From a virus (lineage: Duplodnaviria; Heunggongvirae; Uroviricota; Caudoviricetes): DNA of 5,175 nucleotides. The stretch is from IMG/VR virus record IMGVR_UViG_2537562091_000002. One strand, given 5' to 3'. Shown piece after piece: positions 1 to 5,175 of the stretch; the first letter of the stretch is position 1, and each line of letters opens with the position of its first letter. The notes beneath the pieces were generated by a model, which searched no databases, was not told where the DNA came from, and saw only the letters and a program-made list of their open reading frames with translations. A program made the position numbers and the translations under genes.

Positions 1-195
1 CCTGTCATACGCGTAAAACAGCCAGCGCTGGCGCGATTTAGCCCCGACATAGCCCCACTGTTCGTCCATTTCCGCGCAGACGATGACGTCACTGCCCGGC
101 TGTATGCGCGAGGTTACCGACTGCGGCCTGAGTTTTTTAAGTGACGTAAAATCGTGTTGAGGCCAACGCCCATAATGCGGGCTGTTGCCCGGCAT
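1..195 (-). CDS. insB: IS1 InsB, 5' part only (65 codons; 3' end lies beyond the window)
   Basis: Minus-strand ATG at 193-195, then [65 protein letters not shown] to position 1; overlaps insA in another frame as in canonical IS1. Confidence 0.8.
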
Positions 196-389
196 CCAAC
201 GCCATTCATGGCCATATCAATGATTTTCTGGTGCGTACCGGGTTGAGAAGCGGTGTAAGTGAACTGCAGTTGCCATGTTTTACGGCAGTGAGAGCAGAGA
301 TAGCGCTGATGTCCGGCAGTGCTTTTGCCGTTACGCACCACCCCGTCAGTAGCTGAACAGGAGGGACAGCTGATAGAAACAGAAGCCAC
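114..389 (-). CDS. insA: IS1 InsA (transposition regulator / N-terminal part of the InsAB' transposase), GTG start
   Basis: 91-aa translation [40 protein letters not shown]...LKNSGRSR matches recalled IS1 InsA throughout; stop TAA at 114-116. Confidence 0.95.
132..138 (-). other. IS1 A6C slippery run (programmed -1 frameshift site producing InsAB')
   Basis: Minus strand reads TTAAAAAACTC here, at the insA/insB overlap. The role of this motif in IS1 is established knowledge. Confidence 0.7.
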
Positions 390-421
390 TGGAGCACCTC
401 AAAAACACCATCATACACTAA

Positions 422-444
422 ATCAGTAAGTTGGCAGCATCACC
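422..444. repeat. IS1 terminal inverted repeat (insA-proximal end)
   Basis: ATCAGTAAGTTGGCAGCATCACC is the exact reverse complement of the recalled 23-bp IS1 IR. Confidence 0.85.
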
Positions 445-517: not shown

Positions 518-811
518 TCACCCACGATTAACCAACAGCCAGATCAGCAGACACGCCACCACCGGCACAGCAAAATCCATCAGGCTTGCCACATCCCAAA
601 CACGCGGATCAAAACCGCCCCACCACGGCATGTTAATCCGCTTGCCATGCCCGAACATTTCAATCCAGCGATATTCTGCCTGGGTGTGTTCACGCGCAAT
701 GAAGAACGTACAACCAGCTATCGCCCCATAAGCCCAGTTTCCGGTAAAAAGACCAACCAGTGTCTGCGCAGCCACAGCACAAAGCGCATGAAGAAAAGGT
801 GTTATATCCAT
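518..811 (-). CDS. Small predicted membrane protein (97 aa), function unknown; last gene of the post-fibre cassette
   Basis: ORF with ATG at 809-811 preceded by AGGAGGAG immediately after the upstream stop. Hydrophobic stretches FLHALCAVAAQTLVGLF, WAYGAIAGCTFFIA and FAVPVVACLLIWLLV flank a charged loop containing WWGGFDPRVWD. No family recognised by eye. Confidence 0.6.
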   Translation of the reverse strand: MDITPFLHALCAVAAQTLVGLFTGNWAYGAIAGCTFFIAREHTQAEYRWIEMFGHGKRINMPWWGGFDPRVWDVASLMDFAVPVVACLLIWLLVNRG

Positions 812-821
812 TACTCCTCCT

Positions 822-1526
822 TTATCTAATATCGCTTCGGGAAGTTAATAACAACTTTAATTCTGACTCAAGTTCATCAACTCTTTCAGTCAGTTTCTGG
901 ATATGGTGAATCAGTGGAACAACCAGACGTTCGTACATTACACCTTCGGCAACAAGGCCATTGCTGGAAATAGCTTCAGGAGCATCATCTTCGTTAGCTG
1001 GTCGCCAGTGTACAAACTGAGGAGCAATTTCTCCTACTTCCTCGGCAATCAATCCGTAGAATCCCCAGTCACGCCTGTCATTTTCGCATTGCGACCTGTA
1101 CCACACAGGGCGCATCCTGAAAATGAGATCGGCGTGCTCTGAATCTATTGTCTCTACTGAATGTTTATAGCGGATAGACGATGTTGACCGCAGCACAGAC
1201 GAAATTGCAGGGTCAGGATTAAGATAAAGGTTTGCCGCCGCTGTAGTCGTGGCCAAATTCCATAAATAAAACGCTTCACGACCTGTCAGTGGATAAAAAT
1301 CTCCGCCATAACGACCACTTTCCAGATCGTTCACTTCCACTTTGTTTTTCAGCTTATTATCAACTTCAGTTTTTGTGTATCTGGAGCTGATATCCTGCTT
1401 TGCACTGGTCATCTCAGTCTGAAGCGTTGATACTTTTCTGCTAATTGATGAAATATCTTCCTTAGCTTTACTGACATCCCCCTTTAGCTTGGTGATATCT
1501 CCTGGAATTACTGTCGATGTAGCCAT
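822..1526 (-). CDS. Standalone coiled-coil protein (234 aa) with a C-terminal peptidase-S74-type intramolecular chaperone domain (tail-fibre/tailspike auto-chaperone type)
   Basis: ATG at 1524-1526, with GAGG overlapping the upstream stop 9 nt before it. Residues about 10-65 show 3-4 spaced hydrophobics (heptad pattern). Residues about 116-234 (SSIRYKHSVETID...RPVWYR...GLIAEEVGEIAPQFV...YERLVVPLIHHIQKL...ELESELKLL) fit the recalled S74 IMC consensus (SDrrlK...lrPvsYrY...GliAQEv...). Confidence 0.8.
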   Translation of the reverse strand: MATSTVIPGDITKLKGDVSKAKEDISSISRKVSTLQTEMTSAKQDISSRYTKTEVDNKLKNKVEVNDLESGRYGGDFYPLTGREAFYLWNLATTTAAANLYLNPDPAISSVLRSTSSIRYKHSVETIDSEHADLIFRMRPVWYRSQCENDRRDWGFYGLIAEEVGEIAPQFVHWRPANEDDAPEAISSNGLVAEGVMYERLVVPLIHHIQKLTERVDELESELKLLLTSRSDIR

Positions 1527-1535
1527 TTTCCTGCC

Positions 1536-1817
1536 TCACATCCAGCCACGAAGTTGATGCTCAACAACAACCGCGTATTTATCGAATATTGACGATTTTT
1601 TTGCATCATTAATGATGCGCACGTTTACAAAATATCCGTCTTCCTTAACACATACCGGCTCGCCATCTTCAGTAAGTTCTCCGGTTTCTTTGTACACGTT
1701 ACCTATCACGTCAATAAGAATATCATCCTGCATCGACTCGTCATCATAATAGCCAGCACTCTTCATAAAGGCCGAAAAGTCGGCCTTGTCTGTGAATTTG
1801 ATAATTAAATCTCGCAT
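1536..1817 (-). CDS. Small acidic hypothetical protein (93 aa), translationally coupled to the fibre gene
   Basis: ATG at 1815-1817 overlaps the fibre stop (minus strand reads TAATG); GGGAGAG lies upstream. Asp/Glu-rich product (MRDLIIKFTDKADFSAFMKSAGYYDDESMQDD...). No similarity to Tfa recognised. Confidence 0.6.
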   Translation of the reverse strand: MRDLIIKFTDKADFSAFMKSAGYYDDESMQDDILIDVIGNVYKETGELTEDGEPVCVKEDGYFVNVRIINDAKKSSIFDKYAVVVEHQLRGWM

Positions 1818-3784
1818 TATATTATCTCTCCCATTTGCGCATCGGTTAATTCTTTATGCCATATTCTAAAATTCCTGATATAACCAAATAAATGACGTAA
1901 GCCGGCTGTAGTCTGGCCTCCAATCCTTATACCTGTAGCACCACTAACACTCTTCCACGTTGTTGATGCTGGTGTTGATAAAACCCCATTGCAGCCAGCC
2001 TGAAACTTGCCATCGCTTTTTATTCTATATACAGCGATAATCTTTCTTGGGTAATTTCCAGGTGGAAATGATATTGGATTACCAAATTGAACATATGGAG
2101 TTCCTACACTACCTGCTGTATTTCTGAATGCAAAAACAAAAGCGTCGTCTTTTGTTTTAAATCCTGTTATATCATAAATTCTAGGCGCGGAATTTGGTGC
2201 CATAGACCAATTTTTATTCACTTCAACCATGCAGGTTAAAGGTTTGCTGGCCATGTTATTTTTACAAGGCAATGTAACAATATCGCTTGCTCGCGTTGAT
2301 GCAACTGTATCGGAAATGATAAAAGATGATGCGCATGAGCCGCCTTCAAATTGTGGTGTCGTAACATCCAAATATTCCCCGCCCAAATAAGTTCCAGGTG
2401 AAACAGGTGGAGCAATTTGGATCTGAGAGCCAACCATATTATCAATAGCTTCAGATTGATATGTAACCTCGAAATAAATCCATCCATTAGATTCTTTCTC
2501 CGCTCGGGCGGTTATTCTTGCAGCCCCTCCTCCCGTTTTCCTAATGGACATATCTGTTATATTAAGATATGCATCTGCCAGATAAAAATATGCGGACCCG
2601 TCATATCTTTCAAATCTTATACGACATTGTATATTAGCACTATCGCTTTTTACACGACATGATGTTGTAACATACTTTTCAGTTCCAGTAACATCGACAC
2701 CTCTTCCTCCTGAAACCGCAGCGATATTCATTGTCGTATTTGTCCCAATTTTTTCGTCCTTTATTTGAAACCGCCCATAAGTAAAGCCAAACTCATCAAC
2801 ACCACTTTCTGTTATAGTTACACTTGTTGTAGCTCCCCACTTAGATGGCGTAAGTGAATTAAGATGATAGTTGGTTCTTTGTCCTTCAATCAGCAAACCT
2901 TCTCGTTCAAATCGCGGTTCGTCAACTTCAGCAACGGTTAATACTCCTGATTTATTAATGTATGTTGCACCTGATGCGCGTTTGAAGCTAACAACCTTAT
3001 CGGATGGCATTTTAATAACATCATCACCTACAGTTATTTGCTTATAACCAGGCGAAAAGCCAGCAAGCATATCCAGTGAATCGTTAAACGGTATCCACAC
3101 ATCGGGAAGCGGCTGCAAAACTTGTTTATACGGCTCCGCAGCCTGGCTTGCATACTCTCTGGCTGCGTCTTCACTTGCTTTTGCAGCCGTCTGGCTTGCA
3201 GCGGATGCTTTCGCCGAGTTAGCCGCCGCAGTCTCGCTCGCCTTTGCGTTGGTTTCACTGGTTTTTGCAGCTTTTTGACTGTTGGCTGATGCAGTGGCAG
3301 AAGAAGCCGCCGCACTTGCAGAACCAGCTGCGGCACTCTCGCTTTGGGCCGCTGCATCCTGACTGTTTTTCGCCGCAGTTTCGCTGGCTTTGGCATTCGT
3401 TTCGCTGGTCTTCGCTGCCGTCTGGCTGGACTTTGCGTTAGTTTCGCTCGTCTTCGCTGCTTTCTGGCTGTTAGCTGCAGCAGTTGCTGATCCAGCTGCT
3501 GAAGTCGCAGAACCGGCTGCCGCACTCTCGCTTTCGGCTGCTGCAGCCTGACTGCTTTTCGCCGCAGTTTCACTGGTTTTGGCATTCGTTTCGCTTGTTT
3601 TCGCTGCCGCCTGGCTGGACTTTGCGTTGGTTTCGCTCGTCTTTGCTGCTGTCTCGCTATTTTTCGCGTTGTTTTCTGATTTTTTAGCTGCTGTCGCGGA
3701 GTTTGCCGATGCAGTCTGCGAGGCCGCTGCCGCCTGTGCGCTGTTAACCTGAATCGGTTCGTGCTGCCTTTGCGGTTTCCTGAT
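1817..3784 (-). CDS. Side tail fibre protein (Stf family), N-terminally truncated remnant. Open frame 3784-1817 with no canonical start; the only start candidate is TTG at 3116-3118. C-terminal LamG/concanavalin-A-like lectin-type domain.
   Basis: Manual translation of the frame continuous with the 1817..3118 ORF stays open up to TGA at 3785-3787. Residues upstream of 3118 read ...AAKTSETNAKASETAAKNSQDAAAQSESAAAGSA..., typical of lambda Stf-type shaft repeats. The C-terminus ...IGGQTTAGLRHLFGYIRNFRIWHKELTDAQMGEII fits the LamG signature (IGG...G.IDEVRIYNRALSAEEI). Confidence 0.8.
   Translation of the reverse strand: MRKPQRQHEPIQVNSAQAAAASQTASANSATAAKKSENNAKNSETAAKTSETNAKSSQAAAKTSETNAKTSETAAKSSQAAAAESESAAAGSATSAAGSATAAANSQKAAKTSETNAKSSQTAAKTSETNAKASETAAKNSQDAAAQSESAAAGSASAAASSATASANSQKAAKTSETNAKASETAAANSAKASAASQTAAKASEDAAREYASQAAEPYKQVLQPLPDVWIPFNDSLDMLAGFSPGYKQITVGDDVIKMPSDKVVSFKRASGATYINKSGVLTVAEVDEPRFEREGLLIEGQRTNYHLNSLTPSKWGATTSVTITESGVDEFGFTYGRFQIKDEKIGTNTTMNIAAVSGGRGVDVTGTEKYVTTSCRVKSDSANIQCRIRFERYDGSAYFYLADAYLNITDMSIRKTGGGAARITARAEKESNGWIYFEVTYQSEAIDNMVGSQIQIAPPVSPGTYLGGEYLDVTTPQFEGGSCASSFIISDTVASTRASDIVTLPCKNNMASKPLTCMVEVNKNWSMAPNSAPRIYDITGFKTKDDAFVFAFRNTAGSVGTPYVQFGNPISFPPGNYPRKIIAVYRIKSDGKFQAGCNGVLSTPASTTWKSVSGATGIRIGGQTTAGLRHLFGYIRNFRIWHKELTDAQMGEII
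3240..3720. repeat. In-frame tandem direct repeat, period 189 bp (63 codons), about 2.5 copies, encoding the fibre shaft low-complexity repeats
   Basis: Near-identical blocks start at 3321 and 3510 (GAACCAGCTGCGGCACTCTCGCTTTGGGCC... vs GAACCGGCTGCCGCACTCTCGCTTTCGGCT...). The sub-motif CTTTGCGTT.GTTTC.CT.GT recurs near 3242, 3431 and 3621. Confidence 0.85.
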
Positions 3785-3791
3785 TCAGCAT
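3744..3791 (-). pseudogene. 15-codon stub (MLNQETAKAARTDSG*), interpreted as the remnant 5' end of the gene after nu1 (terminase large subunit by position)
   Basis: ATG overlaps the nu1 stop as TAATG and is preceded by AGGAGGAG. The frame stops after 15 codons exactly where the Stf-type repeat sequence begins. Too short to identify by sequence; the call rests on position. Confidence 0.35.
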
Positions 3792-4285
3792 TACTCCTCC
3801 TGCTGTAATTCCTCCTCATCATCCGCACCTGCTTCAGTCACCCGCAGGGCTATCTGATCGCGCAGATCATCAATAATGGACTGAACACGGCTCACAGCGG
3901 CAGGCTGCAGACCGCAGTCACGTTCAAGAATATCCGGTAATGTCTCCAGCACCTGCACGACCGCTTTTGCCCAGATGGCAAACTCCCGTCTGACATCACT
4001 GGCCGGAATGAGTTGTGCCGTTTCCTGTTCGAACTTAAGACGCTCACGTTCAGACTGATACCAGGCTTTGCGCTCATGCGCGTCCATTTCGCCTTCTGCA
4101 ACCGGCGGTGGTAATGCCAGAAATGCCGACACAATATCAACCACCCGATAAAGCTTGAGGTTGCTTTCATGCCCCCCTGCAACGGGTAGATTTTGCAGCC
4201 TTGCCGCAGCAGTCTGGCGATGTACACCTGACAATGCCGCCAGTTGACTGATATTCAGCGTCAGATTTTTTAACTCTCGATCCAT
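3791..4285 (-). CDS. Terminase small subunit, lambda Nu1 / Noh family (164 aa)
   Basis: ATG at 4283-4285 with GGAG 7 nt upstream. N-terminal HTH-like segment LNISQLAALSGVHRQTAAARL parallels lambda Nu1 KKQLADIFGASIRTIQNWQ. Sits about 175 bp downstream of a cosN-like site, as in lambda. Confidence 0.85.
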   Translation of the reverse strand: MDRELKNLTLNISQLAALSGVHRQTAAARLQNLPVAGGHESNLKLYRVVDIVSAFLALPPPVAEGEMDAHERKAWYQSERERLKFEQETAQLIPASDVRREFAIWAKAVVQVLETLPDILERDCGLQPAAVSRVQSIIDDLRDQIALRVTEAGADDEEELQQEE

Positions 4286-4500
4286 ACCCGCTCCAGAATG
4301 TTTTAAACATGCATCTTGCGAACAACTTTAGGCAAACGGTGTTAGTGATGAACAAAAAACAATCAGAATCGACACCATAAAAATAAAACAACTGTAATAT
4401 CAATCAATTACAGTAGTGGTGATGACGAATAAAATTTCAAAAACTAGCCTTTTTCCGCGACGCTCCCGCCCCGTGGCAGGGCCCCCCCACTGGGAGGACC
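4286..4500 (-). other. cos region: cosN-like 12-mer (minus strand GGGCGGGAGCGT, plus 4460-4471), cosQ-like sequence on the high-coordinate side, AT-rich cosB-like spacer towards nu1
   Basis: Minus strand reads ...GGGTCCTCCCAGTGGGGGGGCCCTGCCACG GGGCGGGAGCGT CGCGGAAAAAGG... Recalled lambda is ...GGGTCCTTTCCGGTGATCCGACAGGTTACG GGGCGGCGACCT CGCGGGTTTTCGC... The 12-mer matches 8/12, both nick-flanking triplets/pentamers match, and the spacing to GGGTCCT is the same. Confidence 0.55.
4391..4414. repeat. Perfect 8-bp inverted repeat with 8-bp spacer (ACTGTAAT-ATCAATCA-ATTACAGT) inside the cosB-like spacer
   Basis: Read directly from the sequence; function unknown. Confidence 0.5.
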
Positions 4501-4718
4501 CGACAGCCTGACAACCGTGACGAGCATCTGTAACAGAGCTTTACATAATGGCATGGGGATAATTCAGAAGGACATCACAGCATGCCCACACAAATTAGTG
4601 TGAGTGTCCTGTTTCTTACTACGCGCAGGACTGACGAGCATGAGGGGAAAATACGAGAAACGAAATGCCTTATCTTCAGAAATGCAGCCGGCATCCGAAC
4701 TGGACGATATTGTAAATT

Positions 4719-4757
4719 TGATCTTACCCAGCAATAGTGGACACGCGGCTAAGTGAG
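4719..4757. repeat. IS3 left terminal inverted repeat (approximate extent)
   Basis: Element terminus begins with TG at 4719; the roughly 39-bp IR length is recalled, not measured. Confidence 0.6.
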
Positions 4758-4783
4758 TAAACTCTCAGTCAGAGGTGACTCAC

Positions 4784-5083
4784 ATGACAAAAACAGTATC
4801 AACCAGTAAAAAACCCCGTAAACAGCATTCGCCTGAATTTCGCAGTGAAGCCCTGAAGCTTGCTGAACGCATCGGTGTTACTGCCGCAGCCCGTGAACTC
4901 AGCCTGTATGAATCACAGCTCTACAACTGGCGCAGTAAACAGCAAAATCAGCAGACGTCTTCTGAACGTGAACTGGAGATGTCTACCGAGATTGCACGTC
5001 TCAAACGCCAGCTGGCAGAACGGGATGAAGAGCTGGCTATCCTCCAAAAGGCCGCGACATACTTCGCGAAGCGCCTGAAATGA
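4784..5083 (+). CDS. insE: IS3 OrfA (InsE). The ORF track starts at GTG 4775; the canonical ATG is at 4784 with AGAGG upstream.
   Basis: Translation MTKTVSTSKKPRKQHSPEFRSEALKLAERIGVTAAARELSLYESQLYNWRSKQQNQ...ATYFAKRLK matches recalled InsE. The CCAAAAG slippery motif lies at about 5043-5049. Confidence 0.9.
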   Translation: MTKTVSTSKKPRKQHSPEFRSEALKLAERIGVTAAARELSLYESQLYNWRSKQQNQQTSSERELEMSTEIARLKRQLAERDEELAILQKAATYFAKRLK

Positions 5084-5175
5084 AGTATGTCTTTATTGAA
5101 AACATCAGGCTGAGTTCAGCATCAAAGCAATGTGCCGCGTGCTCCGGGTGGCCCGCAGCGGCTGGTATACGTGGT
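5080..5175 (+). CDS. insF: IS3 OrfB (InsF), 5' part only, with an apparent 1-nt deletion in an A-run (possibly inactivating, possibly a homopolymer sequencing error)
   Basis: ATG at 5080 encodes MKYVFIE in frame 1. The conserved continuation HQAEFSIKAMCRVLRVARSGWYTW is encoded from 5103 in a different frame. The window has GAAAAC where the recalled sequence has GAAAAAC. Confidence 0.7.
   Translation, partial: MKYVFIENIRLSSASKQCAACSGWPAAAGIRG

What the first reader, a model, noticed from the sequence alone, without database searches (positions are those of the whole stretch)
1536..1817. Acidic 93-aa ORF translationally coupled to the fibre stop codon
The ATG shares one nucleotide with the fibre stop (TAATG), which argues for co-expression with the receptor-binding module. 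The product is strongly acidic (runs such as YYDDESMQDDILID and GELTEDGEP) with no recognisable Tfa-like sequence. Candidate roles are a dedicated chaperone or adaptor for the LamG-type fibre tip, or a small DNA-mimic or inhibitor type protein. None is demonstrated.
Basis: partly seen in the sequence, partly recalled or inferred. Interest (0 to 1): 0.5.

Follow-up and report, generated by a model that had tools for sequence, protein, structure and literature searches.

The report
Small partner gene of lectin-headed phage fibres
The 93-codon ORF is a real, conserved phage gene that always sits directly behind tail-fibre genes ending in a lectin-like head, so it is most likely a helper or accessory subunit for that fibre, but nobody has tested what it does.

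Summary
A 93-aa acidic ORF lies on the minus strand (1817..1536), and its ATG shares one base with the fibre stop codon (TAATG).

It is a genuine gene. It matches PHROG 1361 (unknown function) end to end, is intact in 83 of 85 close loci, and has a median dN/dS of 0.33. It has no Pfam, NCBIfam or PDB relative.

Homologues occur in lambdoid phages (including phage 21), Dhillonvirus, Drexlerviridae, Nonagvirus, T5-like and rV5-like phages, environmental viral contigs and Celeribacter prophages. In every locus examined it directly follows a protein ending in the same two-domain head (GTA-spike-fibre domain plus LamG/galectin-like domain). In 24 of 25 diverse loci it overlaps that gene or lies within 11 nt of it.

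Two natural controls tie it to the head. rV5-like phages whose fibre ends in a Peptidase_S74 chaperone domain lack the ORF. So do proximal fibres that have no lectin head.

The best reading is a dedicated trans-acting assembly factor that takes the place of Tfa or the S74 domain. A virion-bound cap or joint subunit is not excluded. A DNA-mimic role is disfavoured.

In this window the fibre is 5'-truncated, inside an IS-flanked defective prophage.

The parts
1536..1817 (-). 93-aa acidic ORF (PHROG 1361, function unknown). It is identical to WP_001205170.1 of E. coli B REL606.
   Evidence: The AF2 model has pLDDT 83 with topology b1-a1-a2-b2-b3-b4-b5 and a poorly ordered but conserved C-terminal P-x-R-x-W tail.
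1815..1819 (-). TAATG stop/start overlap between the fibre gene and the small ORF.
   Evidence: Equivalent overlaps (TAATG or ATGA) are present in 85 of 85 close loci.
1826..1832 (-). Shine-Dalgarno-like GGGAGAG inside the last fibre codons, 8 nt upstream of the ATG.
   Evidence: The G-rich motif is conserved in the upstream context of close loci.
1820..3118 (-). C-terminal 433-aa head module of the fibre. It contains a GTA_spike_fiber domain (about 2288-2893) and a LamG/galectin-like C-terminal domain (about 1835-2080).
   Evidence: phrog_1419 E 1.6e-183 and phrog_5939 E 9e-74. NF048003 E 4.3e-14, above its cutoff. Laminin_G_3 E 2.2e-5, just below the gathering score.
3119..3784 (-). Ala/Ser/Thr-rich Stf-like shaft repeats of the same fibre frame. 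The gene is 5'-truncated: no start codon and no N-terminal attachment domain.
   Evidence: One search shows the frame open from 3784. One search shows no ATG, GTG or TTG in frame before 3118.
1527..1535 (-). 9-nt spacer (GGCAGGAAA) with a ribosome-binding site, between the small ORF stop and the next gene.
   Evidence: A 9-12 nt spacer is conserved in coliphage loci.
822..1526 (-). 234-aa second fibre-like protein: N-terminal docking-type peptide MATSTVIPGDITKLK, a coiled coil, and a Peptidase_S74 intramolecular chaperone.
   Evidence: Pfam PF13884 E 3.9e-6, above its cutoff. Matches the phrog_3299 C-terminus. The N-terminal peptide co-occurs with the small ORF in 80 of 80 IMG/VR hits.
518..811 (-). 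97-aa membrane protein (PHROG 1443) that closes the module.
   Evidence: It follows the small ORF directly in phage 21 and Perceval.

Best explanation
The ORF encodes a small, acidic, cytoplasmic alpha/beta protein. It is the dedicated partner of tail-fibre or spike proteins that end in a two-domain lectin-like head (a GTA-spike-fibre domain followed by a LamG/galectin-like domain).

**Proposed mechanism.**
- It is translated by coupling to the fibre's stop codon, so it appears next to the fibre's C-terminus in roughly equal amounts.
- It most likely binds the conserved framework or C-terminal strands of the head and helps the fibre assemble.
- This would be the job done by Tfa in lambda-type fibres and by the C-terminal Peptidase_S74 domain in others.

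**Shown.** The gene is real and conserved. Its genomic linkage to this head type is strict. Start/stop coupling is conserved. It is absent from alleles that carry an S74 domain.

**Inferred.** Physical binding, chaperone activity, and whether the protein is released or stays on the virion.

**In this window.** The copy is probably a relic, because the fibre is 5'-truncated in a defective, IS-flanked prophage.
For: **1. Real gene.** PHROG 1361 matches over the full length at E 1.3e-44. Median dN/dS is 0.33 and ORF length is conserved.

**2. Strict linkage to the head module.**
- In 25 of 25 diverse loci the upstream protein ends in the LamG-type C-terminal strand motif.
- 10 of 10 environmental upstream proteins match phrog_5939 right up to their C-terminus.
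- The same holds for the IrisVonRoten, JeffSchatz, IME178 and Perceval fibres and for Celeribacter GTA_spike_fiber proteins.
- Phage-database counts nearly match: 186 records hold the small ORF and 205 hold the head, with the same split by host name.

**3. Negative controls at the same genomic position.**
- The JohannBauhin fibre ends in Peptidase_S74 (E 9.7e-16) and has no small ORF. JeffSchatz has the lectin head plus the ORF, and both phages share the same downstream gene.
- The KarlSchell proximal fibre has no head and no small ORF.

**4. It occupies the tfa slot.** The order J-stf-small ORF, with no tfa, is seen in phage 21, Perceval and IdasGreatGrand.

**5. Coupling is conserved.** 85 of 85 close loci overlap the upstream stop, and 24 of 25 diverse loci overlap or lie within 11 nt.

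**6. Partner-binding features.** The family is always a stand-alone protein of about 70-125 aa. A conserved but low-confidence C-terminal P-x-R-x-W tail suggests a motif that orders on binding a partner.
Against: - There is no experimental data and no complex model.
- Lectin and LamG domains usually fold on their own. The related RcGTA head-spike fibre Rcc01080 was produced in E. coli without a helper and still bound cells (PMC10218006).
- Within lambdoid prophages the small protein is 84-96% identical while the last 170 aa of the fibre are only 35-52% identical. It therefore does not co-diversify with the tip, unlike the C-terminal half of Tfa proteins.
- Every second fibre carrying the N-terminal MxTxTxIPxDITxLK peptide is preceded by the small ORF, 80 of 80. 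That fits a structural joint role equally well.
Confidence: 0.5

Rival explanations
1. It is a structural accessory subunit that stays on the virion. It could be a cap on the lectin head, or part of the joint where a second, distal fibre docks through its conserved N-terminal peptide. That would make branched or segmented fibres.
For: - All 80 IMG/VR occurrences of the second-fibre N-terminal peptide have the small ORF immediately upstream.
- The trio fibre, small ORF, second fibre with a 9-12 nt spacer recurs in lambdoid, T5-like, Dhillonvirus, Warwickvirus and Nonagvirus phages.
- Published models place IrisVonRoten Gp24 on the end of Gp22, with the galectin-like domain protruding (PMC11990801).
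- Transient chaperone caps have been proposed for other glycan-binding fibres (PMC10579305).
- The slow evolution of the small protein relative to the tip fits a conserved mechanical joint.
Against: - The small ORF is kept where there is no second fibre with that N-terminal peptide. Phage 21, Perceval and the environmental contigs have no second fibre gene at all. In JeffSchatz and IME178 the downstream fibre gene has a different N-terminus. In Celeribacter the next ORFs have no tail-family match or are an endolysin.
- In rV5-like phages the same downstream gene is present with and without the small ORF.
- Low-resolution cryo-EM of the EmilHeitz fibre was fitted with the lectin head alone (PMC12143355), although a 10-kDa subunit could be missed at 7-9 A.
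- No virion proteome covering this protein was found.
Confidence: 0.3
2. It is an unrelated small acidic protein, such as a DNA mimic, anti-defence factor or other inhibitor, that merely rides in the tail operon.
For: The family is acidic throughout, with pI 4.05-4.5. No known function is attached to it.
Against: - It always lies in late tail-fibre operons and is coupled to one specific fibre head, across unrelated virulent and temperate phages and prophages.
- It is lost together with that head in allelic swaps.
- Net charge is only -8 over 93 aa.
Confidence: 0.04
3. It is a spurious ORF with no product.
For: None beyond its small size and its 'hypothetical protein' annotation.
Against: The full-length PHROG match, conserved length, dN/dS below 1, and homologues at 30-50% identity that keep the same position in many phage families.
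Confidence: 0.01

Closest known systems
Lambda/Mu/P2-type tail fibre assembly proteins (Tfa, gpU, gpG; Pfam Caudo_TAP)
   Same: A separate gene immediately downstream of the side tail fibre gene and co-expressed with it. In lambdoid genomes the small ORF occupies exactly the tfa slot, and no tfa is present.
   Different: No sequence similarity: zero Pfam hits at E<=1. It is about half the size. It serves a lectin-headed tip rather than a Stf/gp37-type tip. It does not co-diversify with the tip.
Peptidase_S74 intramolecular chaperone domain (endosialidase, T5 Ltf, DT57C LtfA/LtfB)
   Same: It is the allelic alternative at the same fibre locus in rV5-like phages: S74-ended fibres lack the small ORF and lectin-ended fibres have it. 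Both would act at the fibre's C-terminus.
Separately encoded tail-fibre chaperones of Alteromonas phages V22 and A5 ('transient chaperone caps', PMC10579305)
   Same: A small cognate gene next to the fibre gene, shared as a module between unrelated phage families. Dependence on the chaperone varies between phages.
   Different: Those chaperones structurally resemble S74 intramolecular chaperone domains. This protein is predicted to be a different alpha/beta sandwich. No homology was detected.
RcGTA head-spike locus ghsA/ghsB (rcc01079/rcc01080)
   Same: The partner fibre head carries the same GTA_spike_fiber domain. Celeribacter loci show a tail-fibre gene, a GTA_spike_fiber gene and the small ORF in that order.
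   Different: No small partner is described for RcGTA, and Rcc01080 was functional when expressed alone (PMC5026251, PMC10218006). I could not check the R. capsulatus locus here.
PHROG 1361 and PHROG 18574 (unknown function)
   Same: Direct family membership: full-length match to 1361 at E 1.3e-44, and a weaker match to 18574 at E 6.3e-10. The Celeribacter homologues fall in 18574.
   Different: Nothing differs. The families simply carry no annotation.

Membership tests
PHROG 1361 (uncharacterised phage protein family) | Full-length match to the family HMM. | tested here: met
   E 1.3e-44, residues 1-93 against profile positions 1-92 of 92.
Tfa / Caudo_TAP tail fibre assembly proteins | Sequence match to the Pfam or NCBIfam tail-fibre-assembly models. 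| tested here: not met
   No Pfam family at E<=1 and no NCBIfam family at E<=0.1.
Tfa / Caudo_TAP tail fibre assembly proteins | Gene directly downstream of, and co-expressed with, the fibre gene it serves. | tested here: met
   Stop/start overlap in 85 of 85 close loci. Overlap or a gap of at most 11 nt in 24 of 25 diverse loci. It occupies the tfa slot in phage 21.
Tfa / Caudo_TAP tail fibre assembly proteins | Required for folding or trimerisation of the cognate fibre. | not testable with these tools
   This needs co-expression or mutant analysis.
S74-like (intramolecular-chaperone-like) trans chaperones, as in Alteromonas V22/A5 | Structural similarity to the Peptidase_S74 chaperone domain. 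| tested here: not met
DNA-mimic / anti-restriction proteins (Ocr, ArdA-type) | A very high, patterned negative charge, similarity to known mimics, and an early-gene context. | tested here: not met
Virion structural fibre subunit (adaptor or joint) | Presence in purified virions. | not testable with these tools
   The only proteome found, for AKFV33, analysed four gel bands. It detected the lectin-headed fibre ORF137 but did not assay small proteins (PMC3326045).
LamG/galectin-like fibre head (the partner module) | Match to concanavalin-A-like/LamG models at the fibre's C-terminus. | tested here: inconclusive
   Laminin_G_3 scores 20-25 bits in 4 of 5 divergent members, below the 27.6-bit gathering score. 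Published models describe a galectin-like or lectin-like head in homologues (PMC11990801, PMC12143355).

The most novel reading that the evidence does not exclude
The small protein is a stoichiometric, virion-associated regulator of the lectin head. In one version it is a removable cap that masks glycan binding until release. In the other it is the universal socket that lets interchangeable distal fibres, with their conserved N-terminal peptide, plug onto lectin-headed proximal fibres. Either way it would be a previously unrecognised, horizontally shared building block of modular receptor-binding machines, found across siphoviruses, myoviruses and relatives of GTA-like head spikes.
Probability: 0.25. 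Interest if true: 0.65.

Novelty: new variant of a known kind. Interest (0 to 1): 0.45.

Why it matters
Lectin-headed lateral fibres are a common, horizontally exchanged way for coliphages to recognise O-antigen and other surface glycans. They occur in T5-like, rV5-like, Drexlerviridae, Dhillonvirus, Nonagvirus and lambdoid phages.

If this small gene is their obligatory helper or accessory subunit, it must travel with the fibre whenever such receptor-binding modules are swapped or expressed for host-range engineering, diagnostics or structural work.

It would also define a fibre helper family unrelated to Tfa and to the S74 domain, and give a function to PHROG families 1361 and 18574. Published fibre models of IrisVonRoten (PMC11990801) and EmilHeitz (PMC12143355) do not mention the gene.

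Tried and rejected
- **Sequence annotation.** Pfam and NCBIfam gave nothing for the ORF.
- **Solved structures, by sequence.** Only chance-level hits: GAPDH at E 0.13 and telomerase p19 at E 0.0085. The fibre head has no solved homologue either.
- **Complex prediction.** I tried to model fibre head plus small protein as a linker-fused chain with a paired alignment of 22 orthologous pairs.
- **Locus search with an alignment.** The search for related loci with the diverse alignment failed for lack of a conserved stretch. Single-protein queries worked.
- **Cultured relatives of the distant clades.** tblastn of the Celeribacter homologue against isolated phages found nothing.
- **Literature.** The DT57C papers, the AKFV33 proteome, both BASEL papers, RBPseg and the RcGTA papers describe the fibres but never this small gene.
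- **Co-diversification.** I expected the small protein to vary together with the fibre tip, and rejected the idea. It is far more conserved than the tip within lambdoid prophages.

Full report
**1. The observation**

The ORF lies on the minus strand. Its ATG is at 1817-1815 and its TGA at 1538-1536, giving 93 aa. The upstream long frame ends in TAA at 1819-1817, so the TAATG one-base overlap is real. A GGGAGAG ribosome-binding motif sits 8 nt upstream of the ATG, inside the last fibre codons. Nine bases after the ORF's stop codon, the next gene starts at ATG 1526. The protein has pI 4.45 and net charge -8.

**2. It is a real gene**

- It matches PHROG 1361 (unknown function) end to end at E 1.3e-44, and PHROG 18574 more weakly.
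- There is no Pfam or NCBIfam hit.
- A word-indexed search found 214 clusters, almost all from E. coli and all named 'hypothetical'.
- An exhaustive HMMER search of 1.84 billion representative proteins found only 53 clusters at 50% identity. All are stand-alone proteins of 150 aa or less, and the full-length ones are about 70-125 aa.
- In 85 close loci the ORF is 93 codons in 82.
- Median dN/dS over 790 pairs is 0.33.
- Conserved positions are M1, D3, L6, K7, F8, D36, I38, G39, Y42, P54, G61, V64, N65, R67, D71, and a C-terminal P-x-R-x-W.

**3. Surroundings in this window**

The fibre is a remnant. Its frame is open only from 3784 and holds no start codon before 3118. It lacks the N-terminal attachment domain. 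It abuts a DUF1441 small-terminase gene at 3791-4285. IS1 lies at about 1-444 and IS3 from about 4719.

The closest annotated relative is the Qin-like prophage of E. coli B REL606. There the ORF is WP_001205170.1, 'hypothetical protein'.

Downstream of the ORF come two more genes:
- A 234-aa protein with a coiled coil and a Peptidase_S74 intramolecular chaperone, at 822-1526.
- A 97-aa membrane protein, at 518-811.

**4. Distribution and context**

tblastn finds homologues in 186 phage records. These cover:
- lambda-like phages: IdasGreatGrand, Perceval and the classic phage 21
- Dhillonvirus: KarlBarth
- Drexlerviridae: tuinn, swan01
- Nonagvirus: JenP1
- Tequintavirus: IrisVonRoten bas32_0023, IME178
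- Vequintavirus: JeffSchatz bas55_0027, EmilHeitz, FFH2, LL12

Distant homologues at about 30% identity occur in environmental viral contigs and in Celeribacter genomes.

In every locus the ORF directly follows a protein whose C-terminal 370 aa or so is the same module as the window's fibre head. That module is phrog_1419/5939: a GTA_spike_fiber domain followed by a LamG-like domain, ending in a motif like ..G.I...R.W...LT..Q. The head alone is found in 205 phage records, with the same split by host name as the small ORF.

Published structure predictions describe this head in two ways. For IrisVonRoten Gp22 it is a 'galectin-like domain protruding from the C-terminus' (PMC11990801). For EmilHeitz RBP_10 it is a 'lectin-like head D69' (PMC12143355).

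**5. Natural controls**

- *rV5-like phages.* The same fibre locus exists in two alleles. JeffSchatz, EmilHeitz and CarlMeissner have the lectin head plus the small ORF. JohannBauhin's fibre ends in Peptidase_S74 (E 9.7e-16), and no small ORF separates it from the same downstream 196-aa gene.
- *Gordonclarkvirinae.* In KarlSchell the proximal fibre lacks the head and is followed directly by the T-shaped distal fibre.
- *Lambdoid phages.* The small ORF sits where tfa would be, and no tfa is annotated.

The small ORF therefore tracks the head, not the phage lineage and not the presence of a second fibre.

**6. What varies**

The gene downstream of the ORF is not conserved:
- S74 fibres of 234 or 346 aa in prophages
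- a 574-aa T-shaped fibre in IrisVonRoten
- a 715-aa fibre in IME178
- a membrane protein in phage 21 and Perceval
- membrane or lysis genes in environmental and Celeribacter loci

One dependency does exist. Second fibres that begin with M-[AV]-T-x-T-x-I-P-x-D-I-T-x-L-K are always preceded by the small ORF, in 80 of 80 IMG/VR hits. This sample is dominated by related E. coli prophages, and I designed the search pattern from known cases.

Within lambdoid prophages the small protein is 84-96% identical to the window's copy. The last 170 aa of the fibre are only 35-52% identical, and the last 45 aa are 47-78% identical in all but one locus. Any contact must therefore be with conserved framework elements of the head (consensus), not with its variable surfaces.

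**7. Structure**

AF2 with a 23-sequence alignment gives pLDDT 83 and pTM 0.69. The fold is b1-a1-a2-b2-b3-b4-b5, followed by a low-confidence but conserved C-terminal tail.

**8. Interpretation**

- *Settled.* It is a genuine, conserved partner gene of lectin-headed fibre modules, co-translated with them.
- *Most likely, about 0.5.* It is a trans-acting assembly factor that replaces Tfa or the S74 domain. This is an inference from position, coupling and the allelic swap.
- *Against an obligatory folding role.* Lectin domains usually fold alone. The related RcGTA head-spike fibre worked when expressed alone in E. coli (PMC10218006). The small protein does not co-diversify with the tip.
- *Main rival, about 0.3.* It is a retained structural cap or joint. 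The 80 of 80 dependency of the docking-peptide fibres supports this. So does the published model in which IrisVonRoten Gp24 attaches to Gp22 (PMC11990801).
- *Disfavoured.* A DNA-mimic or inhibitor role.

**9. Novelty**

The kind of system is familiar: a fibre plus a small cognate helper or accessory. The protein family is unannotated, unrelated to known fibre chaperones, and not mentioned in the fibre literature I could read.

It is a useful lead for engineering receptor-binding proteins rather than a surprise. I score interest at 0.45. The copy in this window is probably a non-functional relic.

Noticed in passing
window 822-1526 (-): This 234-aa 'stub' fibre has the conserved N-terminal peptide MATSTVIPGDITKLK, a short coiled coil and a Peptidase_S74 chaperone domain starting at residue 116. 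After self-cleavage little more than about 115 aa of coiled coil would remain. The same N-terminal peptide heads much longer distal fibres in T5-like, Dhillonvirus, Warwickvirus and Nonagvirus phages.
   Followed up: partly
window 518-811 (-): This 97-aa membrane protein (PHROG 1443, unknown function) closes the module. In phage 21 and Perceval it follows the small ORF directly. The phage 21 record annotates it with a signal sequence and 2 TMDs. It may be a superinfection-exclusion or lysogenic-conversion gene.
   Followed up: no
window 3119-3793 (-): The fibre gene is 5'-truncated. Its Ala/Ser/Thr-rich shaft frame has no start codon and abuts a DUF1441 small-terminase gene. A second TAATG at 3789-3793 opens only a 15-codon ORF. 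The morphogenesis genes expected between terS and the side tail fibre in a lambdoid phage are not in the window, so this looks like a deletion-scarred defective prophage.
   Followed up: partly
window 1-444 and about 4719-5175: IS1 (InsA ORF at 114-389, minus strand) and IS3 flank the prophage remnant. No complete E. coli genome in the collection matches the window in one piece. The best two cover 81% in 3-4 pieces.
   Followed up: no
L008-L085 (IMG/VR prophage loci) versus the window: The small ORF and the last 45 aa or so of the fibre form a conserved right-hand border to a hypervariable fibre-head cassette. Head identity is 35-52% while the flanking small ORF is 84-96% identical. This suggests the pair also serves as a homology arm for exchanging the tip by recombination.
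   Followed up: partly
L197 and L198 (Celeribacter genomes), small ORF at 3001-3324 and 3001-3321: These Rhodobacterales prophage-like loci carry a tail-fibre gene (phrog_24210), then a 380-aa GTA_spike_fiber protein, then the small ORF with a 4-nt overlap. The layout resembles the RcGTA head-spike pair rcc01079/rcc01080. Whether RcGTA or RcapMu has the small partner could not be checked.
   Followed up: partly
phage database records MG0656xx, OR849447 and OR850771: Records labelled 'Campylobacter phage' and 'Listeria phage' carry rV5-like or T5-like coliphage sequence that is nearly identical to E. coli phages. The host labels or the assemblies look unreliable.
   Followed up: no
L003 (IrisVonRoten) 3700-5001 versus window 2271-3115: The first 280 aa or so of the window's head module, which includes the GTA_spike_fiber domain, are about 90% identical at the DNA level to IrisVonRoten Gp22. 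IrisVonRoten is the only BASEL Tequintavirus that infects O16-restored K-12 (PMC8594841). This hints at a shared glycan specificity with this E. coli prophage fibre.
   Followed up: no
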